Numbered from the stretch's first letter, positions 1 through 17,964 are shown. The stretch: DNA of 32,000 bases from Psychrosphaera aquimarina (GCF_032461525.1 NZ_JAWCUA010000007.1:324943-356942), one strand, 5' to 3'. Program-made: numbers and translations. Notes: generated from the sequence alone by a model not told the origin.

Positions 1-1212
1 ATTTAACGGCATTTTATCAATCAATACTTTGCCTTTATAAGTATCCCCTATTATTTTTTCAACTTCATCAAAGTATACTTTTTTTAGATGTATTAACTCT
101 GTTTTATTTAATTTTGTTAGGCATTTAGGATAATCTTGATTTGTTATATTTTTAGCTGATTCTATTACTTTACTTATAGTTAAAGGTTCACTCAAAGTAA
201 CAATACTATTATGTGTATCTAACATCGTTTCTAAAAGTGTTGAGCCAGACCTAGGAAAACCAATCATAAATACCATTGATTGCTGAGTATATTCAGTCCT
301 CTTTAAGTCTTTTAAATAAATAGAGTCATATTGTTTAATATGATCAATTCGGTCTGTAAAGTCATGCTTTTCTAAATTGAACTTGGCTAATTTATTGAAG
401 AGTTCAAACGAAATATCATAGTTTCCTAATTTCTCATGAGCCTGTGCAAGTAATTTTATATGGAGTAATTGAGGCTGGAACCAATTCGGTATCGAATCTT
501 GCTTTAGTCCAGTTAATAGCTTTATAACCTCATTATAGTCTTTATTTGCTAGAGCTAGACTTGCAACAAGTATTTTAAACCAAGTATGAGCTTCATATTT
601 CTCATATAATTGTAGAATTACAGCTTCTGCTTCTTTTACTTCATTCAACTCTATAAATAAAAGTACGATGTATACAATGTAACCTTCTTGAAGTGTATTT
701 AGGTATAATGAGTACTCCTGTACATACTTTAATGCTTCAGATTTATTAAATGTTTTAACTGCTAAATTACACAATAACTGCTGTAATCGCGGACAAAAAC
801 CGTCTTGAGTTAAAAGTCTAGATGCCATCATTTCTAGTTGTTCATAATCTTGAACCTTCCAACAAATTTCACAATATGCTTTTAATATTGTCACTGAAAC
901 TATTGTGTCATTTGTTACCAGTGTTTCATCAATCAAATTTTTAGCTTGTTTGAGGTTATTTTGGGATAGATACTCTTGTAACATTAATCTTAATACTTGA
1001 GATTTATCTTCATCTGTTGTCGCATATTTTTTTGCATCTTGAAGTGAGAGTAAGGCCAATTTTTCTTTTCCTACGTTACTCAAACAGCAAGCTTTTAAAA
1101 TAAGTAATTTAAATCTTTCACTTTGATTTACTAATTTTACTTTATTAAGTAATTTTAATGCCTTGTTATACTTTTTATCGTTAAACAATTTTGTCGATGC
1201 GTCTAAGGTCAT
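1..1212 (-). CDS. TPR-like repeat / sulfotransferase-family protein; the 3' end runs off the window and the N-terminal 404 codons are present
   Basis: Absent from the ORF track because there is no stop in the window. My own minus-strand translation from the ATG at 1212-1210 stays open for all 404 codons to base 1. It begins MTLDASTKLFNDKKYNKALKLL, followed by about 300 aa of helical-repeat-like sequence. It then reads SMVFMIGFPRSGSTLLETMLDTHNSIVTLSEP ... GKVLIDKMPLN. The GFPRSGSTLL loop matches the PAPS-binding motif of bacterial sulfotransferase-family proteins, which are often fused to TPRs. Confidence 0.6.
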   Translation of the reverse strand, partial: MTLDASTKLFNDKKYNKALKLLNKVKLVNQSERFKLLILKACCLSNVGKEKLALLSLQDAKKYATTDEDKSQVLRLMLQEYLSQNNLKQAKNLIDETLVTNDTIVSVTILKAYCEICWKVQDYEQLEMMASRLLTQDGFCPRLQQLLCNLAVKTFNKSEALKYVQEYSLYLNTLQEGYIVYIVLLFIELNEVKEAEAVILQLYEKYEAHTWFKILVASLALANKDYNEVIKLLTGLKQDSIPNWFQPQLLHIKLLAQAHEKLGNYDISFELFNKLAKFNLEKHDFTDRIDHIKQYDSIYLKDLKRTEYTQQSMVFMIGFPRSGSTLLETMLDTHNSIVTLSEPLTISKVIESAKNITNQDYPKCLTKLNKTELIHLKKVYFDEVEKIIGDTYKGKVLIDKMPLN

Positions 1213-1261
1213 TTTTGGCTCACAATCTATTAGTAAGAGACTAAAGTCTTATATATTTTAA

Positions 1262-2119
1262 CTACTTGTTATATTGCACATAGTCAATACCACATGGGGC
1301 AACATCAGATAGCCTGTATGATTGCTCTATTTGTTTTTTAACAAAATAAAAATCCTTGTTCTCTGAAAATAAATGCCCCGCTAAAGGCAATAATTTAACC
1401 CCATCAATAATATGCCTTGCTTGCCCATGTATTTTAAGCAACACAGTATCTGTTGAAATAACTTTCACGACTCCAAAACTATTGTCTGAAAAAGTACAAA
1501 CCCAATCACCTTCTTTAATTTTCTGAGTTTTAGCAAATAACCAAGTTTGCTGCTTTTGATAAGAATGAGGTAGTTTACTTTCTTCTTTTTCAATGAGAGT
1601 TTGGATTACTTGTTTATAAGGGGTTCCTACTGAAAAATTAGTATTTAAAATACCGTGAGGTATTCCATTTGAGCCCTCTATATAAGGGAGATCATTTATA
1701 TCAGTCATCGCAGTCTCTTGATTAATGCCATCACTAGGATAATCTTCCAATTCAATATTACTAATTGAAAAATCGTCCAATTCATAGCCATTACCGTTAG
1801 CTAAGATATTGCTATTTTCGATAAAGGTAATAAATTTGTCAGCTTCCAACATTTCTTCAAAATACCCTATGAATTCACCTAATGAATTAAATGATTCATT
1901 TTGCTCAACAATCCAGTTTAAATATTTTTTAGTTTCTGAAGGTGATTCAGATTTTAATAAATTCATTTGAACACTGAGCTGAGTTAAACGTCCATAAAAA
2001 CGAAAAAACTGACCTTCTTGCTGTTCAAAGAAATTAGATAATAAACTACCTAAGAACTGTTCCTTAGTATTATATTTTGAAAGTGACTTGCAATCGTCAT
2101 TACAAGTGAACCTTGTCAT
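1262..2119 (-). CDS. hypothetical protein (285 aa), no family recognised; last gene of the fibre-locus operon
   Basis: Long ORF lying 20 nt downstream of the preceding ORF on the same strand. It has an acidic central region and no signal peptide if it starts at the ATG at 2119. Its frame stays open upstream to 2224. Confidence 0.5.
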   Translation of the reverse strand: MTRFTCNDDCKSLSKYNTKEQFLGSLLSNFFEQQEGQFFRFYGRLTQLSVQMNLLKSESPSETKKYLNWIVEQNESFNSLGEFIGYFEEMLEADKFITFIENSNILANGNGYELDDFSISNIELEDYPSDGINQETAMTDINDLPYIEGSNGIPHGILNTNFSVGTPYKQVIQTLIEKEESKLPHSYQKQQTWLFAKTQKIKEGDWVCTFSDNSFGVVKVISTDTVLLKIHGQARHIIDGVKLLPLAGHLFSENKDFYFVKKQIEQSYRLSDVAPCGIDYVQYNK

Positions 2120-2139
2120 AAACTGTGAAGATAATAAGT

Positions 2140-2391
2140 CTAAATCTGAATTACCATTAATTGGTGATAATTTAATATTTTTGAGCTCATAGTTCTCCCC
2201 CCAGTCCCTTCCACAACTTGTATGTTAGCGGTAATAGTTAAACCCCAATAGCTAAGTTCAATATTGCTATATCTGGCTAATTCTCTCCAAGCTGTTAGAT
2301 CTGCAGCATGACGATAACCAGCTTTGTCTAATTTTGTTTGGCACCCTAATAACAAAAGGAAGAATACTAAAACAATAGTTAACTTATACAA
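2140..2391 (-). CDS. small putative lipoprotein (83 aa)
   Basis: The N-terminus MYKLTIVLVFFLLLLGCQT has a lipobox (LLG-C). The ORF starts 1 nt after the stop of the upstream gene. The C-terminal ~20 aa look non-native and follow a G6 tract (see findings). Confidence 0.4.
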   Translation of the reverse strand: MYKLTIVLVFFLLLLGCQTKLDKAGYRHAADLTAWRELARYSNIELSYWGLTITANIQVVEGTGGRTMSSKILNYHQLMVIQI

Positions 2392-2392
2392 T

Positions 2393-2893
2393 TTAAGTCA
2401 CCTTATTATAATATATCAGTATGGCATTGTTTAATTCATATGACAGACTTCCGTTTAATCGGTCAGCAACAAATAATACCCCACCTAAATAAATGTCTAT
2501 AATCCCGGATGCGCCGCTATTAATAGTAACAAACTGGTTATATATCAGGTCTACCTGTTCAAGGTCTGATATAAATCGTCCCTTAGGCTGGTATGTTATA
2601 CCGTCATTTGCCACTTCTTCTCTTCTGTCCACTCTTATTTGATAATTTTCATTTGGGTTAACTGTCAATCTATAATGGCCAGGGGTTCCCACTGGGTTAC
2701 TATTACATAAACTACCAACACCAATTGCTGCTATATTTCCGGTATCCCAATCCATTTCACAACCACCTGCTACAGGTAGTAATTGACCAAAATTTATCTC
2801 ATCAATTTGCACCATAGTTGCTGCATAAGTTAAAGGTGAAAGAATCAATAGAAACCAGCTAGTAACAAAAAACGACTTGTCAAAAATACGCAT
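2393..2893 (-). CDS. secreted short fibre-subunit paralog (DUF4402 / spore-coat-U-like), candidate minor or tip subunit
   Basis: Signal peptide ...LSPLTYA|AT. It shares three elements with the 208- and 250-aa subunits: INFGQL near the N-terminus; a Cys pair (GGCEMDW, SLCNSN); and the tail IYLGGVLFVADRLNGSLSYELNNAILIYYN. It lies 1 nt downstream of the usher-like gene. Confidence 0.55.
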   Translation of the reverse strand: MRIFDKSFFVTSWFLLILSPLTYAATMVQIDEINFGQLLPVAGGCEMDWDTGNIAAIGVGSLCNSNPVGTPGHYRLTVNPNENYQIRVDRREEVANDGITYQPKGRFISDLEQVDLIYNQFVTINSGASGIIDIYLGGVLFVADRLNGSLSYELNNAILIYYNKVT

Positions 2894-2894
2894 A

Positions 2895-5800
2895 TTATTT
2901 ACTCCAAACGACTTCTAGGTAATTGTCAGTGTCTACTATAAAACCATCAACATTAAGCTTCCGTAGAAACAAGTTAGCTTCTTCTTTAGTAAAAAATGTT
3001 CGGCTAACAACACAATACAACGATTGTTGGCCAACCGTTTTAGTTGCAACATATAATTCATCCACTGTTTCTATGCCTTCAGCTAATTGTTTTGCATTTT
3101 CTAAATCATTCGCAGCAAGAAACTGTACTTTCCAACCTTGCAATATGTATTCCTCTGCGACTTGAGTTTTTACACGATAACCTAAACTTGAATAGTTAGC
3201 CTCACCAACCGCATTTGCTTCAATTTCTGATTCAAAAGGGCCTACCTCGAACCTATATACAATATTGCCTTCTGCGTTCATAGCACGATGTATCTTGTTA
3301 TTCACAATACCTTGGGATTTGATGTATCTTTTTAAACTTAGCAATGTTTTAAAATTCCCTACAGAGAGAAGGAAGTTTCTGGACTGTGACATTCCATCTA
3401 TTTGATTTATTGCTCCTTTGTCCACACCATAATTTAAAAACTCACGGCGCTTTTGAGCATTTAAAATGCGATTCCGAAGCGTTATTCTATTTTCCTGAGT
3501 AACTTGTTGCCTAACGCGCCTAAATTCACCTTCAGCCATTTGATCATAAGAATGCGGGGCGTTAAATCCACCTTTGGGAGGAAGGTGTATTAATTTTTCA
3601 TTACTATTAATTACTTGCTCATAGTTAGTATCATCTAACTTAATATTCATTAATGAAGATTGCACCAGTGTCGTGCTTTTCTCTCTTGTTAATTCAATGT
3701 TAGGTAAAAGTATAAATCCGCCAGTTAACGGAGCTTCAAAGGTAAATCCATAGAACTCCGTGTTATAGCCTTTATCTAACAACCAGTCCTTTTTTATATA
3801 AACCTGATAATTACCTGGTAATAAGTTCGAAAAGTGAACATAACCATCCATATCTGAATCAACAAAATACTCATCTCCAGTCGTTAAGTTTTTAGCTATA
3901 ATCGGCACAGCCGAAAGTATCTGGTTATCACCTTCAGTTATTAATGTAACAAAGAACTCAATTTCTATACTTAAATAAAATGGTAAGTTTATTACTTGCT
4001 GAGATCCTGGATGGCTATAAACCAAATATTTTTGGTTTAAGGTATCAGTTCCTGAAGTCCAACTAGAGCCTAATGCAGTAACCCCCGTTCTTGCCCCAAA
4101 CAATCTGGCTCTTCCGTTTTTATTAGTTGTGATATTTTCCCACCCTGGTCCTCCAGAAAAGGTAACACCTTGTAAATTATGATCTAATGCGTCCGGAATA
4201 CCATTTAGTCTTCGGTCTAGGTATGCATGAACATCAAGTGTCCCTTCACTCCTCATAGAGTTTCTAGAGATAGCTAACCTATCATTGTAATAGTCATAAC
4301 CAAAATTGAATGAGATACCAGCTCTAAGGTTCCATTGTTCATTTGAATTAACGGTAGTTCCAAAAGTAAAGAAGTGAGTTGGTTGTTTCCAAGCTAAGTT
4401 GTAACCAAACTGCCATATGTTTTGTTCACCAAAAGATCGACCAGATAAAAGTATATTTTGGTTCGTCGACTCAGTTCTTACGTTATAGTTTATTGATGCT
4501 GAAATTAAATCTCCATTAAACTCATCAATAGCGTTTACATCATATGGAATATCCATTTTGAAACGTAGATTTGAATCTAACTTTGACATGAAACTTATAT
4601 TGCCAAGACTAACAGTTCCTCCTTCATCAACCTTATTTACAAGAGTGTTCGATATATTAAAACCTTGACCTGCATAATTGATTCTATGTGTGAAACTGTT
4701 CAAAGCTTCATTGTCATACTCATCATAATTAAAGCTAAAATAATTTGTAATTTTATTAATTCTAAAATTATATGTTGCGTTTAAATTATATTCTGAAGCG
4801 ACTTCATCGCCGTTATTCTTTGAATTGTATTGTAAAATAAAGCTATCATTTGGTAAAAATGATGTTGCCACGCTAGAACGTTGCTCGACAATGTCTTCAT
4901 TTATACTGAGATTAGAAGTTAAGAACCACCCTGGCAGTGAAACTTGGTTTAATAAACTATAAATTACTCTCTGATTATCTTCATTATGGATATTGCTAAT
5001 GTTTGCTTTAGCACCAATCATCCAATTATCCAAAATACCATAATTGAAATCACCAGCGATAGCATCTAAGTTGAATTCATCTAGATTGACATTAAGAAGA
5101 GAACTATCGTACTCGAATAGACTAAGGTTAAAAGATTTATCCCCCTCAGCCAAAGCTGTTCTCCTTGCATCAATTTTTTCTATTAGCTCTTCACGTTCAC
5201 CATAAGGACCAAACATTACAATTTTAAATGTATTATTGCCAAAGAAAAGTTCAACATTGTTAATATCTATTACTCCATCGTCTGGAACAATAATTGATTT
5301 TAAAAATACGCCATTATGAAATATATCAGCTTCCCAACCTGGTCGGCCAATTTTCTCAAAACTCGTCTTAAAATTTTCATGGTAGTTTTTCGATGAATTT
5401 CTAGATAAAGATATACCTAGACCTCGACTTTCTTCGTTTGAAAGAGAAGCTGTTCGGCTATAAATATCACCAAAGCTATATTGGTCCCAGATTCCAAGAA
5501 ACTTTTCACCTTGATCCGACGGATAACGACTAAGTCGAGTATGCGTTAACAGCTCGTCATCTCTTTTCGTTAACGTAACCAATGTTGAGTGGTATGCAAA
5601 ATCTGATACCGACTGTAAACTACCATTTAGTGTTTCTGTTTGACCAGTATTTGTATAGTCAATAACCGCAGTTCCAGTGGGTACTGATGCCATTCTGTAA
5701 GTATCTTTAACAGTAATTACCCTTTGGTTTTGTAAATTGCTTTGCTCATTGTTTCTATCCACCAAATATTTATTAAATGACCTCTGCTTTTTATTTAATC

Positions 5801-5969
5801 TTATTTTTTTATACGGAAACTCTTCGGTATGACCGCTTAACTCAAGAGTAAGTTTACGTGTATCCGATATAGCTTTTGTTCCAAGTGACTGCTCTAATGT
5901 AGTTAAGGGTACATAAGTATAAACTCCATCATTAAACCAAAACTCTGTATTTTCAGATTGTATTTCCAC
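2895..5969 (-). CDS. usher-like outer-membrane protein, main body (beta-barrel region + CarboxypepD_reg-like domain + two SPOR-like repeats); lacks its own signal peptide and ATG
   Basis: A 1024-codon ORF that begins only at a GTG, although its frame is open back to 5995. Residues ~150-660 show a long run of beta-strand-like segments rich in N/Y/F/G. Residues ~665-760 (VPIIAKNLTTGDEYFVDSDMDGYVHFSNLLPGNYQVYI) resemble a carboxypeptidase-regulatory beta-sandwich. Residues ~865-1015 form two SPOR-like repeats (..LLSVGNF..YRFEVGPFESEIEANAV.. and ..WKVQFLAANDLENAKQLA..YCVVSRTFFTKEEANLFLRKL..). Its position after two chaperone genes matches an usher. Confidence 0.55.
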   Translation of the reverse strand: MEIQSENTEFWFNDGVYTYVPLTTLEQSLGTKAISDTRKLTLELSGHTEEFPYKKIRLNKKQRSFNKYLVDRNNEQSNLQNQRVITVKDTYRMASVPTGTAVIDYTNTGQTETLNGSLQSVSDFAYHSTLVTLTKRDDELLTHTRLSRYPSDQGEKFLGIWDQYSFGDIYSRTASLSNEESRGLGISLSRNSSKNYHENFKTSFEKIGRPGWEADIFHNGVFLKSIIVPDDGVIDINNVELFFGNNTFKIVMFGPYGEREELIEKIDARRTALAEGDKSFNLSLFEYDSSLLNVNLDEFNLDAIAGDFNYGILDNWMIGAKANISNIHNEDNQRVIYSLLNQVSLPGWFLTSNLSINEDIVEQRSSVATSFLPNDSFILQYNSKNNGDEVASEYNLNATYNFRINKITNYFSFNYDEYDNEALNSFTHRINYAGQGFNISNTLVNKVDEGGTVSLGNISFMSKLDSNLRFKMDIPYDVNAIDEFNGDLISASINYNVRTESTNQNILLSGRSFGEQNIWQFGYNLAWKQPTHFFTFGTTVNSNEQWNLRAGISFNFGYDYYNDRLAISRNSMRSEGTLDVHAYLDRRLNGIPDALDHNLQGVTFSGGPGWENITTNKNGRARLFGARTGVTALGSSWTSGTDTLNQKYLVYSHPGSQQVINLPFYLSIEIEFFVTLITEGDNQILSAVPIIAKNLTTGDEYFVDSDMDGYVHFSNLLPGNYQVYIKKDWLLDKGYNTEFYGFTFEAPLTGGFILLPNIELTREKSTTLVQSSLMNIKLDDTNYEQVINSNEKLIHLPPKGGFNAPHSYDQMAEGEFRRVRQQVTQENRITLRNRILNAQKRREFLNYGVDKGAINQIDGMSQSRNFLLSVGNFKTLLSLKRYIKSQGIVNNKIHRAMNAEGNIVYRFEVGPFESEIEANAVGEANYSSLGYRVKTQVAEEYILQGWKVQFLAANDLENAKQLAEGIETVDELYVATKTVGQQSLYCVVSRTFFTKEEANLFLRKLNVDGFIVDTDNYLEVVWSK

Positions 5970-6268
5970 CCCCTCAGAAAAAAGAATTTCTTTTTTTGTT
6001 CAAAGACTTCAATCTCTAAATTATTTTCCACAAATCGATACTTTACCCTTAAACTATCAAGTATTGGTGTAATAGCTATATACGTTTTGTCATCAATTAC
6101 GTAAGCGTCAATTGCACGAGCAATATTAAGCCCTTCATCTTTTACATCAAATAAATAAAACTCACCGAGCTCCAATTTAATAACATCTAACTTAGTAAGT
6201 GTTACGCCCATTAATTGTGTGCTAAACAAACAGAGTCCAAATATTAAAAGTTTTATAATTGAGTGCAT
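5903..6268 (-). CDS. N-terminal fragment of the usher-like protein (signal peptide plus N-terminal domain), separated from the main body by a frame change at an A7 tract
   Basis: It starts MHSIIKLLIFGLCLFSTQLMG (signal peptide) and begins 4 nt after the chaperone stop. After ...LEIEVFEQKK the frame runs into junk and stops at 5903. The -1 frame continues as EILFSEGVEIQSENTEFWF... into the 1024-aa ORF. Confidence 0.6.
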   Translation of the reverse strand: MHSIIKLLIFGLCLFSTQLMGVTLTKLDVIKLELGEFYLFDVKDEGLNIARAIDAYVIDDKTYIAITPILDSLRVKYRFVENNLEIEVFEQKKKFFFLRGWKYNLKIQSFGLMMEFILMYP

Positions 6269-6272
6269 AAGA

Positions 6273-7025
6273 TTAACCGCCTACTGGCGTCTCAGACTTT
6301 ATTTGTCCTGACTCCTTAAGCTCATTAAACATTATTTTTAAAGGTGAATCTGTGTCAGATTTTAGCTCAAGCTCAAGCTGTTTAGGCTTTTCTCCCGGGT
6401 AGTGAGATACCTTTTTCAATTCTTTTATTATACCTCCTGATTCCTGATATCCGATTGTCACATCTCCACTAACAGAGCGTTCTCCGGTAACTAACATCTC
6501 AGCAAAAACCTTAGTACCTACTTTTCTCACATTTGAAAAAGTTACTTGAGAATCAAGTTTTTTTGTTCTAACAATTAATGGGATGTTTTGTACCAATGTT
6601 GGTTTTATTTCCACTTTTTTAGTACTTTCTTCAGCTTGTCCTTTACAGATAACTGCAATCGCTCCGATATACTCTCCATCTTCAACACCTGGTTTACGTC
6701 TGTATATAGCTTTAAATTCTTGTACTTGCCTAAAATCGAGATTAAATCTACTTGGCGCAATTCTGACCATATTAACAGGACTAGGATTATTAATGCCGTC
6801 GCCTTCTGTTAAAGTTAATTTTCCATTCTTCACATCCAAGTTTCTAACTTCTATTTTACAAGTTAAAGGTTCATCATCTGAATTAATAACACTCATACTT
6901 GTACTCTGGACATCTGGAGATAAAAATAAACGTGTCGAAGTAACTGTAACAGATTCGACTGATACACTAATAAAACAAAATAGGAGCCCAAAACCAAGCT
7001 TTATAATATATTGCTTTGTATTCAT
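6273..7025 (-). CDS. PapD-like periplasmic fibre chaperone, paralog 2
   Basis: Signal peptide, then the first strand VTSTRLFLSPDVQSTSMSVINSDDEPLTCKI with a conserved Arg. A later segment, VRIAPSRFNLDFRQVQEFKAIY, resembles the chaperone motif f-v-x-PP-x-f-x-l-x-p-g-x-x-q-x-x-R. The size (about 250 aa) and two-domain layout fit, and it lies between another chaperone and the usher. Confidence 0.5.
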   Translation of the reverse strand: MNTKQYIIKLGFGLLFCFISVSVESVTVTSTRLFLSPDVQSTSMSVINSDDEPLTCKIEVRNLDVKNGKLTLTEGDGINNPSPVNMVRIAPSRFNLDFRQVQEFKAIYRRKPGVEDGEYIGAIAVICKGQAEESTKKVEIKPTLVQNIPLIVRTKKLDSQVTFSNVRKVGTKVFAEMLVTGERSVSGDVTIGYQESGGIIKELKKVSHYPGEKPKQLELELKSDTDSPLKIMFNELKESGQIKSETPVGG

Positions 7026-7037
7026 AAGAACGCTTCC

Positions 7038-7784
7038 TTAGATAGATAATTTAAAGGTTTTTTTATACTTATAGGATCCAGTTTCAACAAACTCAATCCC
7101 TATACCTTGCTCTGAAATGTATTTCGTTTGAATAGAAATTGCTAGTTTCTTCATATCCGAATACAGCACAGTGTTCTTTTTCAACTTTTCTAAACGCTTT
7201 CCATTATTATCAACTAAATATACATCACCGTATACTGACCGATTACCGCTATGGAGTAGGTTAATAGAGAACTCGTCTTGATCACGTTTCACAATTTCTA
7301 GATCAAGATCGACTGTATATTTTTTTGTATCACCAGTTCTCATAACTAAAGGTACAGCTAAATCTAATAATGTCGCAAATCGTCCCTGTCCATCTTCTAC
7401 ACTTGTTTGTTTACGACAGGAAAAAACGGCATAAGTCCTAACCTCATTACTCGAGTCGTTAGGAATTCTTCTATAAGAAAAAGAAATATATCTTGTTGAA
7501 TTTGGTTCAATAACGAAGCTCTTCGGTGAATATTTTACTCTAGCTAGAGCAGCTTTCGATAACTCGGCTTGTTCTTCAACTGTTAATTTTTTGACACCAC
7601 CAATACCGTCATAAAGCCTATTGTTAAATTTAATTTCACAAATTTCGGGAACTACGGACTTGTTCCTAATTGGAAACTTTTTATTGCGGTTATCTTCGTC
7701 AAGGTATATTCGAAAAGCTCCCAATGAAGCCGCCCCCGCATTAGATACCCAAACAAATAGAAGTAAAAAAAGTATCAGTTTCAT
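7038..7784 (-). CDS. PapD-like periplasmic fibre chaperone, paralog 1
   Basis: Signal peptide MKLILFLLLFVWVSNAGA, then LGAFRIYLDEDNRNKKFPIRNKS (first-strand Arg). A later segment reads VKYSPKSFVIEPNSTRYISFSYR. A GAGG ribosome-binding site lies 4 nt upstream of the ATG. Confidence 0.5.
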   Translation of the reverse strand: MKLILFLLLFVWVSNAGAASLGAFRIYLDEDNRNKKFPIRNKSVVPEICEIKFNNRLYDGIGGVKKLTVEEQAELSKAALARVKYSPKSFVIEPNSTRYISFSYRRIPNDSSNEVRTYAVFSCRKQTSVEDGQGRFATLLDLAVPLVMRTGDTKKYTVDLDLEIVKRDQDEFSINLLHSGNRSVYGDVYLVDNNGKRLEKLKKNTVLYSDMKKLAISIQTKYISEQGIGIEFVETGSYKYKKTFKLSI

Positions 7785-7855
7785 AAACCCTCAGTTAATT
7801 AAAATGTTGCTAATCGAATGGTTTAAAGCAAGTAAAGTACCAACTTTAAAAGACT

Positions 7856-8113: not shown

Positions 8114-8165
8114 CAGTAATTGTAAATTACTTTTTGTTAATTGGTACCGTTTAATAAATTAATAT

Positions 8166-8792
8166 TTATTGATAGATTACATTAACATCATAGTCTGCAG
8201 TGTACGAACCATCTGCAGTTAAGGCTACTTGGTTTACAATCGTACCACCAACGATAATACGTGTTTGACCTGCTGGTAAGTTCGCAGTTAAGTCTGGTGA
8301 TGCCTGTACAGGTTGTCCGTTACCTAGTCCTTCAGTAATTTGATCAAATGTAGCTGTATTTGAAGCTGTGAAATCCGCAACGTATGCATCGGGGGTAAAC
8401 GCAATATCGTTTGCAGCACCAGCTATAACTTCAACTGTGATACCTGCATCAGCATAAGCAGAAATACCAATAATGCCTACCTGACCATTTGCATCTGGAT
8501 CACCACAACCAGTACCTAAATCACCTGAAGCTGTGTAACCTGTAGGTGTACCTACACCTAACTGACCAGCTGACAGCGTTTCAGTACCAGCACCTACTGG
8601 GTCCATAACACAGGAGGCTGCTGGAGTTAGTGCCAATACAGGCCCAAAGTCTAGAGCCCTAATTGGTGTCAATGTAATTTCAGCTAACGTATCAAAAGTT
8701 AAAGTTGCTGTAAAATCTGTTGCAGCTGCATTTGCCGACAAACCAGCCAAAACTAATGGCAAACTTTTCTTAATCATATTTAAAGTTTTCAT
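8166..8792 (-). CDS. secreted acidic fibre subunit (DUF4402 / spore-coat-U-like), 208 aa
   Basis: Signal peptide ...GLSANAAA|TD. The mature N-terminus FTATLTFDTLAEITLT has alternating hydrophobic residues. It also has LDFGPV, a Cys pair (ASCVMDP, GTGCGDP) and the tail GQTRIIVGGTIVNQVALTADGSYTADYDVNVIYQ. The mature part contains almost no Lys or Arg. A GGAGA ribosome-binding site is present. Confidence 0.6.
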   Translation of the reverse strand: MKTLNMIKKSLPLVLAGLSANAAATDFTATLTFDTLAEITLTPIRALDFGPVLALTPAASCVMDPVGAGTETLSAGQLGVGTPTGYTASGDLGTGCGDPDANGQVGIIGISAYADAGITVEVIAGAANDIAFTPDAYVADFTASNTATFDQITEGLGNGQPVQASPDLTANLPAGQTRIIVGGTIVNQVALTADGSYTADYDVNVIYQ

Positions 8793-8806
8793 CGTATTCT
8801 CCTACC

Positions 8807-9559
8807 TTATTCGTAAGTTACTGTTACAACAACAGAATCACTAACCGCACCTGCTGTAATTGGAGTTCCATCAAATACTAGGACTCCACCAAGTAATATG
8901 TGAGTTTGGCCAGTATTATCTTCAAGCACCGAACCGCCAGTATCACCAGCACCTACTGATAAACCTACACCGGTAATCGATGTAACACCATCAAAGTCTC
9001 TACATACGTCTACGGCAGCAGTTCCATCAAAATCAACTACACAAGTTTGATCTCCAGCTGTATAAGTCCAACCAGTACCAACAACATCAGGGATATCTAC
9101 AGAAACTGTTGCACCTGCTACACCATCAACTTCTAAGACCATATGTGATCCGACTGTGGTACCCGTTGCGGCATCACCTAGACAGCCTGTTGAGTCATCA
9201 GCAATTTCACCAGGTACATGAGCGGCAGCTGCTCCATCAGTTAATGGTGTACCAGCTGGTATTACTAAGTCAGCTGCATCACTGGTATCATTACCATCGA
9301 TATTAACTAGTAAATCAGTCTCAAAAGCATTTGTCGCTGCAACAAGAATACAAGTATCGTTATTGTTTGGATTCAACTTAATTTTATCACCAAATGATAG
9401 GCTAGAATCTCCCAGTGATGCATGTTGTGTAATCGTAACATCAGATACCGCCTGAGCAGTAATTGTATATGTATCCGCACTAGCAACAAAGGCATTACCC
9501 AAGCCTAATATTAAGGCACTTGCTACTAGCGTCTTTTTCATTTTAAATTTTGGTTGCAT
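8807..9559 (-). CDS. secreted acidic fibre subunit (DUF4402 / spore-coat-U-like), 250 aa
   Basis: A strong GGAGG ribosome-binding site lies 7 nt upstream of the ATG. Signal peptide ...AFVASA|DT. It has the strand YTITAQAVSDVTIT, LSFGDK, four Cys residues and the tail GQTHILLGGVLVFDGTPITAGAVSDSVVVTVTYE. It is a paralog of the 208-aa and 166-aa proteins. Confidence 0.6.
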   Translation of the reverse strand: MQPKFKMKKTLVASALILGLGNAFVASADTYTITAQAVSDVTITQHASLGDSSLSFGDKIKLNPNNNDTCILVAATNAFETDLLVNIDGNDTSDAADLVIPAGTPLTDGAAAAHVPGEIADDSTGCLGDAATGTTVGSHMVLEVDGVAGATVSVDIPDVVGTGWTYTAGDQTCVVDFDGTAAVDVCRDFDGVTSITGVGLSVGAGDTGGSVLEDNTGQTHILLGGVLVFDGTPITAGAVSDSVVVTVTYE

Positions 9560-9734
9560 AACAACCCTCCTACATGATTTATTTTAGTAATGACCTTGAA
9601 AGAAAAATTACTATTAATATTTCTAACATGTTTAATGTATCGACTCGTTAAATAAAAGCTTTAGATCTTTTTCCCCTTTTTTTGAAATTTAATTTTTATC
9701 TTTAATAACAATAAGATAACCATATCATTTATAC

Positions 9735-9760
9735 AAAAAAGACAGCTAATATCAGCTGCC
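9735..9760 (-). terminator. weak intrinsic terminator after the lipoprotein pair
   Basis: Short hairpin GACAGCT / AGCTGCC (9741-9760; 5 contiguous bp plus 1). The A6 on the plus strand (9735-9740) gives U6 on the minus-strand transcript. It lies directly downstream of the stop at 9768. Confidence 0.35.
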
Positions 9761-9767
9761 TTTTTAT

Positions 9768-10502
9768 CTACTGTGCGGTATAAACTGGAATACCGTCGTT
9801 GTTATTGCTTTTCATAATGTGATTACTAATGGCACTAGGGATAAATCCTTGTGCACTGGCAACAATGGCTTTTGATTCCATACCTACGATTCTAGCGTTG
9901 ACCATAATACCTTGTTGATGTCTCACCAAAGTGCCGGTTAACACATAACGAATTGGAATGTCTGGGGAAAGATCTATGTAATCTTTACTCAGTACAAAAT
10001 CACCACCAGGCGTAACCCTAATGTAATCTGTTGCTTTAAAGTCAACAACGGGGATCCCTAATTTATGAACCTCATGCATAAAACCTTCAGATATTTGATT
10101 GCCTAATAGAGAAGCACTTTGGTAGTTACTGTCTAAAAAGACAAAACTAGACACGGCCATTGGCGTTGAGGCATTAACGTATTGCAGGTTAGTTAAAAGA
10201 TCCTGCATGATCCCTCTAACATAATGGTTAACGTTTTTTGTATTAGCGGCTTGTCCGTTGTGACTGCCCATTTGTCCGTTAGAACTTGAGCTCCACTTAT
10301 CTTGGTATTGGTTTTGAAAGTTAGCGCTATTTTCAAGAGGATCAGCGGATCTTAATAAGCTGATCTTATTTGTTTCGGGTTGACTAGCACCACTATTAAT
10401 TGATGCTTCCACTTGTTGATCTTCGAAGTCTGTCCATTTATCTAATGACGCACAGCCATTTAGTAACGACAGTGCAATACTACCTATAATTAATTTTTTC
10501 AT
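9768..10502 (-). CDS. lipoprotein, FlgO / TolB-N-terminal-like family (paralog B)
   Basis: Lipobox LSLLNGC|AS, followed by a low-complexity Q/N/S linker. The C-terminal domain reads ...MAVSSFVFLDSNYQSASLLGNQISEGFMHEVHKLGIPVVDF...IRYVLTGTLVRHQQGIMVNARIVGMESKAIVASAQGFI. This is the pattern I recall for FlgO-family outer-membrane lipoproteins. Confidence 0.45.
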   Translation of the reverse strand: MKKLIIGSIALSLLNGCASLDKWTDFEDQQVEASINSGASQPETNKISLLRSADPLENSANFQNQYQDKWSSSSNGQMGSHNGQAANTKNVNHYVRGIMQDLLTNLQYVNASTPMAVSSFVFLDSNYQSASLLGNQISEGFMHEVHKLGIPVVDFKATDYIRVTPGGDFVLSKDYIDLSPDIPIRYVLTGTLVRHQQGIMVNARIVGMESKAIVASAQGFIPSAISNHIMKSNNNDGIPVYTAQ

Positions 10503-10510
10503 AATACCCC

Positions 10511-11125
10511 CTAGTATTCCCCACGGTAAATTTGGTTATCGTTTAGCTGAACTTTTGAATGACTCCACATACTATTGGTAGCTATATAGTCAGTAGCCGC
10601 TGCAACTAAGCTTTTATCTTCAATTCGGATTAATCGTGCATTCACCATAAGTGAGTTTTGTTGAATGCTATAAGTGCCTGTTAACATATACTCAGCATTG
10701 ATTTTTTGATCTTGCATTACTTGCGTTCTAGATAACATGACGTCGCTATTTGGTGTCATCATGATTGATGGTAACGCTCTATGTTCAATTACTTTAAGGC
10801 CCGCTTGAGTAGATAAAGTGATAAAACTCTCTTGAATTTGTAAGCCTATTCTTTGCAGATTTGAATTTTTCTCGTGTTCTAAATTAGACACTGGCAAAAA
10901 TGTGCCGACTACCACCGGACTGTGAACATCCAAGCCGATCGACGTATCAAATAGCTGTCTCGCCATTCTTTCTACGCTTTGATGTAACGTTCCTTCTAAC
11001 GTTTCAGGTTCATAACCTTTACGCTCTAGAACCTCAATCTGTTTCTTTTGAAACGACGCTACTTCATCAGAAATCGTTGTACAACCAGCCAACATAGTAA
11101 CTAGTATTATGAATAAGTATTTCAT
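10511..11125 (-). CDS. lipoprotein, FlgO / TolB-N-terminal-like family (paralog A)
   Basis: Lipobox TMLAGC|TT. The sequence ...VVVGTFLPVSNLEHEKNSNLQRIGLQIQESFITLSTQAGLKVIEH...AEYMLTGTYSIQQNSLMVNARLIRIEDKSLVAAATDYI is collinear with the neighbouring 244-aa protein. The ORF-track start at 11131 is a GTG, so the ATG at 11125 (MKYLF...) is preferred. Confidence 0.45.
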   Translation of the reverse strand: MKYLFIILVTMLAGCTTISDEVASFQKKQIEVLERKGYEPETLEGTLHQSVERMARQLFDTSIGLDVHSPVVVGTFLPVSNLEHEKNSNLQRIGLQIQESFITLSTQAGLKVIEHRALPSIMMTPNSDVMLSRTQVMQDQKINAEYMLTGTYSIQQNSLMVNARLIRIEDKSLVAAATDYIATNSMWSHSKVQLNDNQIYRGEY

Positions 11126-11163
11126 AATCACTCATCTATTAATTAAATAATCTGATTTGAATT

Positions 11164-11180
11164 AGCAATAAGAGTGCCAG
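11164..11180 (-). promoter_or_regulatory. sigma-54 (RpoN) -24/-12 promoter for the lipoprotein pair
   Basis: The minus strand reads cTGGCACtcttaTTGCTaat. That is an exact TGGCAC-N5-TTGC with canonical GG/GC spacing. It lies about 40 nt upstream of the ATG at 11125. Confidence 0.65.
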
Positions 11181-11379
11181 AAAATTGGCGATGGTTGGAA
11201 CATGCCCTATTTATAATAGCGCTGAGGATTCACTGCAATTTTATACAATAGTAATTTAATTACACTTTCAAGCTTATTTTTAAGCAATTGCTGAAAAATA
11301 AGCCATACATTGATAGTGAATAATGCAAAGTTTCGTTATTATGTTTCATTCTGTTAAATAGACGAAGACTTCAATTCAT

Positions 11380-14300
11380 ATGCTTGATCAGATTTTAGCT
11401 TATTTCTCCATCTCCCCAGACAGCATTCTTATTTATGGTACTCACAACAAAGCAATGGTTGCTTTGTCCTTGTTTATCGCCATTTTGTCATCGTTTATGG
11501 GGTTGCAACTGGCGACTCAAGAAGCCAAAGACATTTCTATCGTACGTAGGAACATTACCTTATTGGGTGGTAGTGTTGCATTAGGTGGTGGTATTTGGTC
11601 TATGCATTTTATTGGTATGTTAGCGTTTGAGTTATGTACCGTGGTCGATTATAACGTTTCATTAACTTTATTCTCAATGTTGCCAGGCATAGCCGCATCG
11701 TTTGTTGCATTAAATCATATACAAAAACACACAAATGGTATCAAACCTCTTATATGGGGAGGCGTGTTGGTTGGTTCGGGAATAGGTGCTATGCACTATA
11801 CCGGCATGGCTTCAATGCAAATGGCGCCTTTGCTTCGTTATGATTTATCTATTTTTACCTTATCTATAATAGTGGCCGTTACCTTTGCTATGTTGTCATT
11901 ATGGATCCGTACTGGTTTGTTAAAAATCTGGGGACAAAAAGGTTGGCAAGCTAATTTAGTTGCTAGTGTCGTAATGGGCTTTGCTATTGCGGGTATGCAT
12001 TACACTGGCATGGCTGCTGCTCGTTTTGTTAAACCACCTGGATTAGAACTTGGCGACCAAACCAGTGAAATGTCCTTTTATTTAGCGCTAGTGGTTTCCA
12101 TTACTACTATCGTGATCATCACACTTATTTTATGTATTAATGTGATCTACAAATACCGAGATATATCCCGCCATGCCAGTTTAAGTGAGCATAGATTACG
12201 CTCTATGATGGATACTGCGGTGGATGCCATTATTAGTTTTGACCGCAAAGGGATTATAGAGAATGTAAACCGAGCCACTGAAACTTTGCTAGGTTGGAAT
12301 TCTCATGAGATTGTTGGCAAAAATGTAAAGTTATTGATGCCGCCAGAATCTTACGACACGCACGATAATAATTTACGAGAGTTTATTACTACAGGCCAAT
12401 CAAGTGTTATAGGTGGAAGCCGAGAGGTCAAAGCTCAACATAAAGATGGCACCTTAATTAATATTAGGTTAGCTATTGGCCATGTAGATCTTGAAAGAGA
12501 TAGTTTTTTTGTTGCCTTTATGTCCGACATACGTCAGCGCATTGAAATGGAACAAGCCCTTCGCGAAAATGAAGCTAAATTCAGATCGTTAATTAGTAAT
12601 ATTCCAGGCATTGCCTACCGTTGTTTAAACGAAAAAAGCTGGCCTTTATTGTTTATCAGTGATGCGGTTGAAGAAATTACAGGTTATCCGGCTAAGGATT
12701 TTTTACCGCCTAATAACAAACGAAATTTCTCGGATTTATTCCACCCTGACGATGTCGATTTGATTTCTTCGAACCAAATAGTGGATCAAATGTTCAATCT
12801 AGAATATCGAATTATCACTAAAAATGGTGATATTCGTTGGATGATGGAATTTGGCAATCATATTACCGACGATGAAACCGGAGAGATTTGGTTAGACGGT
12901 TTCATTATGGATATCACTGAGCGTCAAAATATGGAACAACAGCTTAGAGAAGCAAAAGAAATAGCAGAAGAAGCAGCAGAAGCGCGCGCCGCGTTTATGG
13001 CAAATATGAGCCATGAAATTAGAACGCCAATGAATGCCATTATTGGTTTTAGTGACATTTTATTAGAAACAGAACTAAAACCCGACCAGCTTAAACACTT
13101 GAATGTTATTAACAATGCGTCTAAATCATTATTACATTTATTAAACGATATATTAGACAGTGCAAAACTCGACAAAGGTAAGTTAGAGCTTGAGTTAAGA
13201 CAATTCTCATTAATAGAAGAAGTCGATGCGGTCATCTCTACATTATGGTTACAAGCCAGAAATAAAGGTTTAGAGCTAAATGCCGACATTTCTCGCAAAC
13301 TAAACGGCTTTTATTTAGGTAGCCCTGAACGTATACGACAAGTATTAACTAATTTAATTGGTAATGCAGTTAAATTTACCGAATCAGGCCGAGTGACGGT
13401 TTCGGTATACCCTGTTGGTGATAATAATGTAAGGTTCGAAATAGAAGACACTGGTATTGGCATGGACGAGCAACAGCTTAAATCTGTATTTGAAGCCTTT
13501 ACCCAAGCCGATGCATCCATGAGTCGACGTTTTGGCGGAACGGGCTTAGGGACCACCATTAGTAAACAACTTGTTGAATTAATGGGTGGGGAAATAAATG
13601 CACAGAGCGAACTTAATGTTGGTACTAAGTTTTACTTTGAACTTCCGTTACCACAAGTCAAACACAAAGTTGAAAAACAGCAAGTCACTCAGGTTCAGTT
13701 ACCGCCATTAAAAATATTAGTAGTGGATGATATCCAACAAAATATAGACTTATTAACCTTGTTACTCGAACGAGATGGCCATACCGTTGTGACCGCCCGA
13801 GACGGAAAACAAGCATTAGTACGTATGTCTGATTGTAAAGAAATCCAATTAGTATTAATGGATATTCAAATGCCAGTCTTAGATGGCTTAAATGCTACTA
13901 AACAAAGACGTGAATACGAAAAACAACATCAACTCCCTCAAATGCCGATAATCGCGTTAACCGCAAGTGTATTATTAGACGACAAATTAGCGGCTGAACA
14001 ATCAGGCATGCAAGGGTTTGCAAATAAACCGGTGGATTACACTTTATTAAGTAATGAAATTGCCCGAGTGTTAGACATTGACGTCGAACTGTCTCCTGTT
14101 ACGGTTGATAATAACAAGGCCGATTTATTAATGGATGAGACTAAAGGTGAAGCACTGTGGGGAAGTTTAGATGCTTATTATCAGCAAATATTAAGCTTTA
14201 TAAATAGTCAAAGTGTTGCAATTACGGATCTAAAACAAATAATAGTTTCTGAAAGCTGGGACAAAGTAACGGCCGTAGCCCATTCACTAAAAGGTGTGAG

Positions 14301-14694
14301 TGGTAATTTAGCCATAGTAAAATTACAACGTCTTTTTGCGCAACTTGAATCTGTCGTCAGCAGCCACCCAGAACAATGTATTTCTGTATATGAAACTATT
14401 GATGATGTTTTTACCGAGTTAACCGACAAAGTAAACACGTGGAAAAATAACTATCAAAATGTGGCAACATTTTCTGAAGTTGATCAAGATGCGTTAATCA
14501 GCTTACTCAATCAGCTACACACAAAGGCGCAAGAAAATGAAGCTGAAGAAACTGATCTCGCTGAACTGTTAACATACAGTGAATCCGAATACCGTAGCGA
14601 TATAAATAAAATTTATAACGCATTAAATGATTTTGAATTTGAATATGCTCTGGAGCATATAGTAGCGCTTAAACAACGCCTAGAAAGTAAGTGA
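11380..14694 (+). CDS. hybrid sensor histidine kinase: MHYT membrane sensor - PAS - PAS - HisKA/HATPase - receiver - HPt
   Basis: The multi-TM N-terminus carries three MHYT motifs (MHFIGM, MHYTGM, MHYTGM), followed by two PAS-like segments. The kinase core shows the H-box [16 protein letters not shown] and ATPase boxes [16 protein letters not shown] and GGTGLGT. The receiver reads ILVVDD...[11 protein letters not shown] and the HPt domain reads [12 protein letters not shown]. Confidence 0.9.
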
Positions 14695-16725: not shown

Positions 16726-17094
16726 TCAAAGCACCATTCTCTTGATGCCATTTTTAAGCAAAACTTCATTAAAGTTAATTAATAACCCAATTCCGATATT
16801 TGCTAATTTCATATAAGTTAATAGTTGGGCTTGATGTATGTTTTCCAACTTTTTCACAGTTTTAAGTTCAACTATTAATAGCTTTGATACTAATAAGTCT
16901 ATTCGAAACCCATTATCAAATTCTATTCCTTTGTAGAGCACTGGTAACTTAACTTCATATTCTACTTGAATGCCTAGGTTGCGGAGTTCATAAACTAGAC
17001 ACTTCTGATATACCGATTCCAACAACCCAGGTCCTAGTTGTCTATGTACCTCAATAGCACATCCAATTACTACACCAGCCAAGTCCTTATCCAT
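16726..17094 (-). CDS. GxxExxY family protein (PD-(D/E)XK nuclease-like fold)
   Basis: MDKDLAGVVIGCAIEVHRQLGPGLLESVYQKCL contains G-L-L-E-S-V-Y. RIDLLV...LLIVELK fits a D...E-x-K nuclease-like motif. I prefer the ATG at 17094 over the longer track ORF that runs to 17145. Confidence 0.75.
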   Translation of the reverse strand: MDKDLAGVVIGCAIEVHRQLGPGLLESVYQKCLVYELRNLGIQVEYEVKLPVLYKGIEFDNGFRIDLLVSKLLIVELKTVKKLENIHQAQLLTYMKLANIGIGLLINFNEVLLKNGIKRMVL

Positions 17095-17163
17095 ATTATG
17101 TTCCAATCTCAAAAACAATTGGCTAAATATAGTACAAGTACCCAATAAAGAAACGGTGCATTA

Positions 17164-17962: not shown

Positions 17963-17964
17963 TG

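What the first reader, a model, noticed from the sequence alone, without database searches (positions are those of the whole stretch)
5969..6000. Usher gene is split exactly at an A_AAA_AAG slippery heptamer (A7 tract); a -1 shift restores one ORF
**Seen in the sequence.**
- The minus strand reads ...GAA GTC TTT GAA CAA AAA AAG AAA TTC TTT TTT CTG AGG GGG TGG....
- The upstream ORF (signal peptide plus N-terminal domain, 6268 downward) reads ...EVFEQKK and then junk to a stop at 5903.
- The -1 frame is open from 5995 and reads KK-EILFSEGVEIQSENTEFWF... into the 1024-aa body.
- The body otherwise has only a GTG start, with no signal peptide or ribosome-binding site.
- In the zero frame the junction is cA AAA AAG (5996-5990).

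**Established knowledge.** A_AAA_AAG is the efficient bacterial -1 programmed frameshift heptamer, as in E. coli dnaX. Homopolymer tracts are also classic slipped-strand phase-variation switches for surface structures, and classic sites of sequencing error.

**Inference.** There are three competing explanations:
- an assembly indel (true A8);
- an ON/OFF phase-variable usher;
- translational recoding giving a short N-terminal product plus the full-length usher.

I see no strong downstream stem-loop or upstream SD-like stimulator, which weakens the recoding option.
Basis: partly seen in the sequence, partly recalled or inferred. Interest (0 to 1): 0.65.

Follow-up and report, generated by a model that had tools for sequence, protein, structure and literature searches.

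The report
One-base frameshift in pilus usher gene
A gene for the outer-membrane pore that assembles a surface pilus in a marine Psychrosphaera bacterium is broken by one missing base in or next to a run of A's; this looks like an ordinary slippage mutation or sequencing error, not a programmed decoding trick.

Summary
On the minus strand a 121-codon ORF (6268..5903) carries the signal peptide and the start of the protein. A 1024-codon body (to 2895) lies in the -1 frame. Both frames overlap an A7 run that reads A_AAA_AAG in the zero frame.

The fused 1124-aa protein is colinear, without gaps, with 25 full-length single-ORF homologues. None of nine orthologous loci has the A-run, the heptamer or a frame break there. 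AAAAAAG occurs 20 times in the window against 19 expected. No downstream RNA structure or upstream SD-like element is present. The break falls inside the N-terminal domain, not at a domain border.

Programmed frameshifting is therefore not supported. A second one-base loss, at the window's only G6 run, splits the last gene of the same operon. All the other genes checked in the window match their family models or orthologues end to end.

Best reading: non-programmed loss of one base, most likely A8 to A7. This is either a true slipped-strand mutation that silences the pilus operon (about 50%) or a homopolymer under-call in the assembly (about 33%). The sequence alone cannot separate these two.

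The "usher" label holds by fold (FimD/PapC, Foldseek E 9e-20) but not by Pfam. The protein is a very divergent usher with a C-terminal SPOR domain.

The parts
5990..5997 (-). A7 run (5997-5991) followed by G. It forms A_AAA_AAG (5996-5990) in the zero frame and is the most likely site of the missing base (inferred ancestral A8).
5903..6268 (-). Upstream fragment of the usher gene. It holds the ATG, the signal peptide and the first ~93 residues of the N-terminal domain, then 28 out-of-frame codons and a stop.
2895..5999 (-). Usher body in the -1 frame. It holds the rest of the N-terminal domain, the beta-barrel, Ig-like C-terminal domains, a linker and a C-terminal SPOR domain. The mechanical ORF starts at GTG 5969.
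5969..5983 (-). T6 (5983-5978) and G5 (5973-5969) runs inside the frame-overlap zone. These are alternative sites for the missing base.
6273..7025 (-). 250-aa secreted protein, a candidate PapD-like chaperone with sub-threshold matches only.
7038..7784 (-). 248-aa paralogue of the candidate chaperone (24% identity).
8166..9559 (-). Two secreted Ala/Gly/Thr/Asp-rich proteins (208 and 250 aa). They are candidate pilus subunits, inferred from position and composition only.
2393..2893 (-). 166-aa secreted protein directly after the usher, weakly similar to the 208-aa protein. It is a candidate minor subunit.
1262..2391 (-). Last gene of the operon (lipoprotein; 392 aa in strain F3M07). Here it is split into 83-aa and 285-aa ORFs.
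2197..2202 (-). G6 run, the only G/C run of 6 or more in the window. It is the site of the second one-base loss relative to F3M07.
9768..11131 (-). Two FlgO-domain lipoprotein genes at the head of the cluster. FlgO-family genes lie at the same upstream position in at least L001 and L009, the only loci where these genes were checked against Pfam.

Best explanation
The split is a non-programmed loss of a single base pair from a homopolymer in an otherwise intact gene. The most likely event is A8 to A7 at 5997-5991.

The gene encodes a very divergent chaperone-usher-type outer-membrane usher with a C-terminal SPOR (peptidoglycan-binding) domain. I take the loss to be a true slipped-strand replication error in this strain.

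**Consequences as the sequence stands**
- Ribosomes starting at ATG 6268 make a 121-aa dead-end peptide. It consists of the signal peptide, two thirds of the N-terminal domain and 28 junk residues.
- The 1024-codon body lacks its own signal peptide and a usable ribosome-binding site.
- The pilus operon is therefore OFF.

A second loss of the same kind (G7 to G6 at 2202-2197) has hit the last gene of the operon. That is what happens once an operon is no longer selected.

**Possible leak and reversion**
- Because the deletion left A_AAA_AAG in phase, a small fraction of ribosomes could slip -1 by accident.
- The product would be ...FEQKK-EILFSEG..., exactly the inferred ancestral protein.
- The A-run could also regain a base by slippage.

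**Shown:** the split, colinearity with intact homologues, absence of the tract in orthologues, absence of stimulators, and the second lesion.

**Inferred:** that the base is missing from the DNA rather than only from the assembly, which tract lost it, and any leak or reversion.
For: 1. The fused protein covers 97-100% of 25 homologues of 1055-1143 aa, all single ORFs. It aligns across the junction without a gap to the closest one, Psychrosphaera sp. F3M07 at 69% identity.
2. Eight of nine orthologous loci carry an uninterrupted usher ORF. L009 is broken further downstream. None of the nine has an A-run, a heptamer or a frame break at the junction.
3. AAAAAAG is at chance frequency: 20 observed against 19 expected. 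The 60-90 nt downstream fold no better than shuffles (z = 0.13, 0.95, -0.33). The 25 nt upstream contain no AGGA, GGAG or GAGG.
4. The junction (about residue 93) lies inside the predicted N-terminal domain (strands 21-145). The short product would not be a folded unit.
5. A second break of the same direction and type sits at the window's only G6 run, in the 392-aa gene of the same operon.
6. thyA, lgt, ptsP, rppH, mutH, tilS, accA (which holds an in-frame A8), dnaE and rnhB match their models end to end. The operon genes flanking the breaks are colinear with their F3M07 orthologues. The assembly is therefore not generally error-ridden.
7. The same operon in Paraglaciecola aquimarina KCTC 32108 (L009) carries at least 7 frameshifts. 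They are confined to a subunit gene, a chaperone gene and the usher (5 in the usher, against a 92%-identical intact homologue). Five flanking genes checked there look intact; a sixth (a third FlgO-like gene, L009 1651-2344) may itself be split. This pilus operon therefore probably decays for real elsewhere.
8. The pilus core is a hypervariable cassette: 66-82% aa identity to F3M07, against 95-100% for the flanking genes. This pattern is typical of surface structures under diversifying or loss selection.
9. Intact orthologous operons carry in-frame A8 and G8 runs, so an ancestral A8 is plausible.
Against: - No reads are available, so an assembly under-call predicts exactly the same sequence.
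- If the true lengths are A8 and G7, the two lesions sit at a joint-longest A/T run and the longest G/C run of the window. That is also where homopolymer-biased sequencing fails first.
- The broken usher shows no other decay. It differs at only 4 of 150 columns invariant in the 25 homologues, like other divergent intact members. If the lesion is real, it is recent.
- Clustering of the two breaks in one operon is only weakly significant. About 45% of the window's long runs lie in the operon, so the chance that both fall there is about 0.2.
Confidence: 0.5

Rival explanations
1. Assembly or sequencing artefact. The strain really has A8 (and G7 at 2202-2197) and one intact usher gene. A homopolymer-biased platform (nanopore, PacBio CLR, 454 or Ion Torrent) under-called two of the longest runs in the region.
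For: - Both breaks are one-base losses at homopolymers. The G6 run is the only G/C run of 6 or more in 32 kb. A8 would tie for the longest A/T run.
- Neither gene shows any other sign of decay. Conserved residues are kept.
- Repairing one base restores perfect colinearity with the orthologues.
Against: - Twenty other A/T runs of 7 and one of 8 lie in the window. Several of them, including the A8 in accA, sit inside genes that read through intact.
- No other gene that was checked is broken.
- An error rate high enough to give two errors in 4 kb should have broken more genes. An error rate low enough to spare 27 kb makes two hits in one operon unlikely.
- The gene sits on a 1.05-Mb contig, which is shorter than the one related complete chromosome seen (4.6 Mb). 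This suggests a draft assembly, and most drafts are short-read. That last step rests on my own knowledge and is not tested here.
Confidence: 0.33
2. Evolved phase-variable (contingency) switch. The A-run is maintained because reversible A7/A8 slippage turns the pilus ON and OFF in the population.
For: - The homopolymer lies early in the ORF of a surface-structure assembly gene.
- The locus is a hypervariable cassette.
- Pilus genes are classic phase-variable targets (established knowledge; interrupted pilus genes are discussed in PMC5009743).
Against: - The tract is absent from the closest relative and from all nine orthologous loci.
- A7/A8 is short for a contingency tract.
- The genome encodes MutH (22806-23480), so methyl-directed mismatch repair should suppress slippage in short runs.
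- Homopolymer density in the operon is only modestly higher than in orthologous operons.
- A second, independent break downstream means one reversion may not restore function.
Confidence: 0.08
3. Programmed -1 ribosomal frameshifting (dnaX-like) or programmed transcriptional slippage. This would yield both a short N-terminal product and the full-length usher.
For: - A_AAA_AAG is in the correct phase.
- It is the most shift-prone heptamer in E. coli (PMC5009743).
- C_AAA_AAA without designed stimulators rescued one-base deletions at 25-60% in an over-expression vector (PMC1851650).
- The -1 product would be exactly the ancestral protein.
Against: - Neither the heptamer nor the two-ORF layout occurs at this position in any of nine loci or 25 homologues.
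- The heptamer occurs at chance frequency.
- There is no downstream structure and no upstream SD-like element.
- The break is inside a domain, and the zero-frame product runs 28 junk codons.
- A7 is short for efficient RNA-polymerase slippage.
Confidence: 0.04

Closest known systems
Frameshifted pilus/fimbrial genes at homopolymers (pseudogenes, or slipped-strand ON/OFF variants, of surface-structure operons)
   Same: - A one-base change in a mononucleotide run splits an assembly gene of a surface appendage.
- Orthologues are intact.
- A second lesion lies in the same operon.
- The same operon is multiply frameshifted in another strain (L009).
   Different: - The tract is short (A7) and not conserved.
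- No population data show switching.
- The usher family involved is uncharacterised.
E. coli dnaX -1 programmed frameshift (A_AAA_AAG plus upstream SD plus downstream stem-loop)
   Same: The identical heptamer in the correct phase. A -1 slip would join the two frames.
   Different: - There is no SD-like element and no stem-loop.
- There is no conservation of the heptamer or the split.
- In dnaX the shifted frame ends almost at once and gives a functional shorter product. Here the shift would be needed to make the only functional product, and the unshifted product is a broken domain.
FimD/PapC outer-membrane ushers of the chaperone-usher pathway
   Same: - The predicted fold matches FimD and PapC over about 750-950 aligned columns (E 9e-20 to 1e-8), ahead of all other barrels.
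- It has a signal peptide, an N-terminal domain, a large barrel and Ig-like C-terminal domains.
- It sits directly after two PapD-like candidate chaperones and candidate subunit genes.
   Different: - There is no match to Pfam Usher, PapC_N or PapC_C, or to any NCBIfam model.
- It is about 300 residues longer, with a helical linker and a C-terminal SPOR domain.
- Two paralogous chaperone-like genes are present.
- FlgO-family lipoprotein genes are conserved upstream.
- It was found only in marine Alteromonadales-type genomes and metagenomes.
'Compensatory' low-level frameshifting on indel-bearing homopolymers (e.g. the herpesvirus thymidine kinase G-run; reviewed in PMC5009743)
   Same: An indel in a run leaves a shift-prone sequence that could let a few percent of ribosomes restore the frame.
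   Different: Nothing here shows that the leak occurs or is used.

Membership tests
Programmed -1 ribosomal frameshift site (dnaX type) | X_XXY_YYZ slippery heptamer in the zero frame at the frame junction | tested here: met
   A_AAA_AAG at 5996-5990 is in phase with ORF 6268..5903. However, the motif occurs 20 times in the window against 19 expected.
Programmed -1 ribosomal frameshift site (dnaX type) | Downstream stimulatory stem-loop or pseudoknot at 5-9 nt | tested here: not met
   MFE values of -7.8, -12.3 and -8.1 kcal/mol give z = 0.13, 0.95 and -0.33 against shuffles.
Programmed -1 ribosomal frameshift site (dnaX type) | Upstream internal Shine-Dalgarno-like stimulator | tested here: not met
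   The 25 nt upstream (AATTTAGAGATTGAAGTCTTTGAAC) contain no AGGA, GGAG or GAGG (read).
Programmed -1 ribosomal frameshift site (dnaX type) | Heptamer and two-frame layout conserved in orthologues | tested here: not met
   Eight of nine loci have a single uninterrupted usher ORF. L009 is broken elsewhere. No locus has an A-run or a frame break at the junction. All 25 homologous proteins are full length.
Programmed -1 ribosomal frameshift site (dnaX type) | Both products plausible as functional units | tested here: not met
   The junction at about residue 93 lies inside the predicted N-terminal domain (strands 21-145). The zero-frame tail is 28 unrelated residues.
Slipped-strand phase-variable (contingency) gene | Mononucleotide or short tandem tract within the ORF or promoter whose length sets the frame | tested here: met
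   An A7 run lies at the junction, and adding one base restores the frame.
Slipped-strand phase-variable (contingency) gene | Tract length varies within populations or between close strains | not testable with these tools
   No reads are available. No same-allele sequence appeared in the protein search (the closest homologue is 69% identical). An exact-pattern scan of metagenome contigs found none.
Slipped-strand phase-variable (contingency) gene | Tract maintained in related strains or species | tested here: not met
   F3M07 has GAT AGT GAA ACA GAG GTA at this position. None of the nine loci has a run there.
Chaperone-usher pathway usher (FimD/PapC family) | Match to the curated sequence models (Pfam Usher PF00577, PapC_N, PapC_C) | tested here: not met
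   No hit at E <= 0.1 in any of the 26 family members. No NCBIfam hit. A PDB sequence-profile search returns only DamX SPOR.
Chaperone-usher pathway usher (FimD/PapC family) | Usher fold: N-terminal domain, 24-strand barrel with plug, two Ig-like C-terminal domains | tested here: met
   The Foldseek top 16 PDB hits are all FimD/PapC, at E 8.8e-20 to 1.3e-8 over 500-965 columns. The next class (LptD) scores 6.6e-7. Caveats: the model has mean pLDDT 61.9 with the barrel at 85-90, and TM-scores are low (0.28-0.45).
Chaperone-usher pathway usher (FimD/PapC family) | Adjacent PapD-like periplasmic chaperone | tested here: inconclusive
   - PapD_N scores E 0.0082 over 121 of 126 profile positions, below the cut-off, and hits 3 of 19 orthologues.
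- The NCBIfam pilus chaperone model scores E 8e-4, below the cut-off.
- The structure model is poor and its fold hits are generic Ig domains.
- A PDB profile search gives no hit.
Frameshifted copy of an intact gene (pseudogene or sequencing error) | Both fragments colinear with one intact orthologue, joined by a single 1-nt offset, with no other lesion | tested here: met
   By tblastn, residues 1-77 lie in frame -2 and residues 91-1120 in frame -1 of the same strand. The protein alignment across the junction is gap-free.
Frameshifted copy of an intact gene (pseudogene or sequencing error) | Distinguishing a real mutation from an artefact: read-level support | not testable with these tools
   The window's own genome was not retrievable.

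The most novel reading that the evidence does not exclude
The A7/A8 run (together with the G6/G7 run downstream) is a working ON/OFF or leaky-expression switch. It would act by DNA slippage, aided by accidental -1 ribosomal slippage on A_AAA_AAG. It would control a previously undescribed, hypervariable chaperone-usher pilus whose usher is tethered to peptidoglycan by a SPOR domain. Marine Psychrosphaera would then be able to shed a surface structure targeted by phages or grazers and regain it later.
Probability: 0.1. Interest if true: 0.45.

Novelty: new member of a known kind. Interest (0 to 1): 0.2.

Why it matters
As a frameshift it matters little. It is one more homopolymer indel in a surface-appendage gene, and it warns annotators that the 121-aa and 1024-aa ORFs should be treated as one disrupted gene.

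The surrounding locus deserves more attention than the heptamer:
- It is a chaperone-usher-like pilus system that curated models miss entirely.
- Its usher carries a SPOR domain.
- Its core differs sharply between near-identical strains.
- It is broken in two cultured strains and intact in the eight other loci examined (F3M07, MAGs and metagenome contigs).

If the breaks are real, they suggest that this pilus is readily lost.

Tried and rejected
- **The window's own contig.** A search by exact protein found nothing on record. The window's genome was also not among the loci returned by the species-representative genome scan.
- **Same-allele DNA in metagenomes.** A pattern allowing 6-10 bases in place of the tract gave 0 hits.
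- **Which tract lost the base.** Scoring A8, T7 and G6 repairs against a profile of the 25 homologues left them indistinguishable.
- **Direction bias of indels against F3M07.** In conserved non-coding DNA, used as a fingerprint of the sequencing platform, there were 4 cases where the window is shorter and 3 where it is longer. This is uninformative.
- **Relaxed constraint in the broken usher.** None was detectable.
- **Confirming the chaperone.**
  - A 2-sequence model was poor in the N-domain.
  - Foldseek gave only generic Ig hits.
  - A PDB profile search with 19 orthologues gave no hit.
- **RNA features.** Rfam found nothing in the window and there are no tRNA genes.
- **Plasmid collection.** No match.
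- **Rejected idea: independent translation of the body from GTG 5969.** The only SD-like GAGG lies 2 nt from the GTG, and the product would lack a signal peptide.

Full report
**1. Observation**

The minus strand around the finding reads GAA GTC TTT GAA CAA AAA AAG AAA TTC TTT TTT CTG AGG GGG TGG.
- An ATG ORF runs 6268..5903 (121 aa). It begins with a signal-peptide-like MHSIIKLLIFGLCLFSTQLMG and ends ...EVFEQKK followed by 28 unrelated codons.
- The -1 frame is open from 5999 and reads TKKEILFSEGVEIQSENTEFWFNDG... to 2895. The mechanical ORF is GTG 5969..2895, 1024 aa.
- The A7 run is at 5997-5991, and the zero-frame heptamer A_AAA_AAG is at 5996-5990.

The description is therefore correct, with two qualifications.
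- The body frame opens at 5999, not 5995.
- The overlap zone also holds a T6 run (5983-5978) and a G5 run (5973-5969).

**2. Is it one gene?**

Yes.
- A search with the fused 1124-aa protein found 25 homologues of 1055-1143 aa. All are single proteins covering 97-100% of the query. The best is a 'SPOR domain-containing protein' of Psychrosphaera sp. F3M07 at 69% identity.
- The fused protein aligns across the junction without any gap.
- In the F3M07 locus (L001) the gene is one 1120-aa ORF in a fully syntenic cluster.
- By tblastn, residues 1-77 of the F3M07 protein fall in frame -2 of the window and residues 91-1120 in frame -1.
- The window is therefore one base short, equivalent to A8 to A7, T7 to T6 or G6 to G5.
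- A profile of the 25 homologues scores the three repairs at 324.2, 323.8 and 323.3 bits. The junction lies in a variable stretch, so the exact site is not resolved. The A-run is favoured only because it is the longest.

**3. Is it programmed?**

The evidence says no.
- None of nine orthologous loci (Psychrosphaera, Paraglaciecola, Colwellia and an unclassified gammaproteobacterium) has an A-run, a slippery heptamer or a frame break at this position.
- AAAAAAG occurs 20 times in this 37%-GC window against 19.0 +/- 4.0 in shuffles.
- The 60-90 nt downstream fold no better than shuffled sequence (z = 0.13, 0.95, -0.33).
- The 25 nt upstream hold no Shine-Dalgarno-like core.
- In the structure model, the N-terminal domain spans strands 21-145. 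A product ending near residue 93 plus junk is not a domain.
- The correct phase of the heptamer is simply what results when one A is removed from CAA AAA AAA GAA.
- A_AAA_AAG is nevertheless the shiftiest heptamer in E. coli (PMC5009743). A related stimulator-less C_AAA_AAA site rescued one-base deletions in an expression vector (PMC1851650). Some accidental read-through to exactly the ancestral protein is therefore conceivable. This is inference only.

**4. Context that bears on artefact against mutation**
- A second break of the same type exists. The last gene of the operon is 392 aa in F3M07. Here it is split into 83-aa and 285-aa ORFs by one missing base at GGGGGG (2202-2197). This is the only G/C run of 6 or more in the window.
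- The other genes checked are intact.
  - thyA, lgt, ptsP, rppH, mutH, tilS, accA, dnaE and rnhB match their NCBIfam models essentially end to end. accA contains an in-frame A8.
  - The operon's other genes and the flanking sensor kinase and sulfotransferase are colinear with their F3M07 orthologues.
- The window holds 21 A/T runs of 7 or more. Several of them lie inside these intact genes.
- The broken usher differs at only 4 of 150 columns that are invariant in the other 25 proteins. This is within the range of intact divergent members. The lesion is therefore recent or unreal.
- Indels against F3M07 in conserved non-coding DNA show no direction bias.
- The two breaks sharing one operon is suggestive but weak. 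About 45% of the window's long runs lie in the operon.
- Independent support for real decay of this locus comes from Paraglaciecola aquimarina KCTC 32108 (L009).
  - Its usher is cut into six frame segments relative to a 92%-identical intact metagenomic protein.
  - One subunit gene and one chaperone gene are also split.
  - Two upstream FlgO genes and the downstream LysM, sulfatase and sugar-binding genes look intact. A third FlgO-like gene (L009 1651-2344) may itself be split.

My weighting is about 50% real slipped-strand mutation, 33% assembly under-call, 8% evolved phase switch and 4% programmed recoding. Only reads or resequencing can separate the first two.

**5. What the gene is**
- By sequence models it is not an usher.
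  - No Pfam Usher/PapC hit appears in any of 26 members.
  - There is no NCBIfam hit.
  - A PDB sequence-profile search finds only the DamX SPOR domain.
- By fold it is an usher.
  - An AlphaFold2 model has mean pLDDT 61.9, with the barrel at 85-90.
  - Its top 16 PDB matches are all FimD/PapC, at E 8.8e-20 to 1.3e-8. The next class (LptD) scores 6.6e-7.
- It is about 300 residues longer than FimD. The extra length comprises a helical linker, an alpha/beta domain of unassigned family (residues about 965-1036; SPOR-like by secondary-structure pattern only) and a C-terminal SPOR domain (Pfam SPOR E 1.1e-7 at 1045-1110).
- Upstream lie two paralogous 248-aa and 250-aa secreted proteins (24% identity). 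They have sub-threshold matches to PapD_N and to an NCBIfam pilus-chaperone model, and a TRLFL / FRIYL motif where PapD has its conserved Arg. My attempts to confirm the fold were inconclusive.
- Two Ala/Gly/Thr-rich secreted proteins and a 166-aa one are plausible subunits by inference.
The system is best called a highly divergent, uncurated chaperone-usher-like cluster.

**6. Comparison, novelty and verdict**

The split works like any homopolymer frameshift in a pilus gene. It shares the heptamer with dnaX but fails four of five defining features of a programmed site. It fails the conservation test for a contingency locus.

It is a new instance of a known, ordinary kind of event, possibly an artefact. 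Interest is low (0.2).

The most novel reading not excluded is a functional slippage or leak switch on a new SPOR-tethered, hypervariable pilus. I give it a probability of about 0.1.

Noticed in passing
window 2197-2202 (minus strand G6), gene 1262-2391: A second one-base loss in the same operon. The 392-aa lipoprotein gene of F3M07 is split here into 83-aa and 285-aa ORFs at the window's only G/C run of 6 or more.
   Followed up: yes
window 1206-7791 versus 1-967 and 8165-14393; L001: Mosaic divergence from Psychrosphaera sp. F3M07. The FlgO genes, sensor kinase, 166-aa gene and sulfotransferase are 95-100% identical in protein. The two candidate subunits, two chaperone-like genes and the usher are only 66-82% identical (76.5% at nucleotide level). 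This looks like a hypervariable pilus cassette between conserved flanks.
   Followed up: partly
window 2895-6268 and homologues P0002-P0026: A family of about 1100-aa usher-fold outer-membrane proteins that no Pfam or NCBIfam usher model detects. They carry a C-terminal SPOR domain. They were seen only in Psychrosphaera, Paraglaciecola, Colwellia and marine metagenomes. In the nine loci examined the usher follows two paralogous chaperone-like genes (one of the pair is itself frameshifted in L009).
   Followed up: partly
L009 3773-9326 (Paraglaciecola aquimarina KCTC 32108, NZ_JAWDIO010000002): The orthologous operon carries at least 7 frameshifts: 5 in the usher, 1 in a subunit gene and 1 in a chaperone gene. 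Five flanking genes look intact. The cause is either real decay or local assembly errors. The junctions include two A7 runs but also non-homopolymer sites.
   Followed up: partly
window ~1700-1770; L001 ~12480-12620: In-frame copy-number difference of an 11-12-aa repeat (MTDINDLPYRE-like) in the 392-aa lipoprotein. F3M07 has three copies and the window has one.
   Followed up: no
window 9768-11131; L001 3269-4626; L009 153-2344: Two (three in some loci) FlgO-domain lipoprotein genes lie directly upstream of the pilus genes. They are 99.5-100% identical between the window and F3M07. Their link to the pilus system is unknown.
   Followed up: no
window 17146-17964: An ~820-bp stretch between a GxxExxY-family gene (16726-17145) and lgt has no ORF over 38 aa and no Rfam match. 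The GxxExxY gene itself sits between thyA and lgt.
   Followed up: no
window 5804-7326 (minus strand): Five A7 runs lie on the coding strand within 1.5 kb of the usher 5' end and the two chaperone-like genes. The density is higher than in the rest of the window, though only modestly higher than in orthologous operons.
   Followed up: partly
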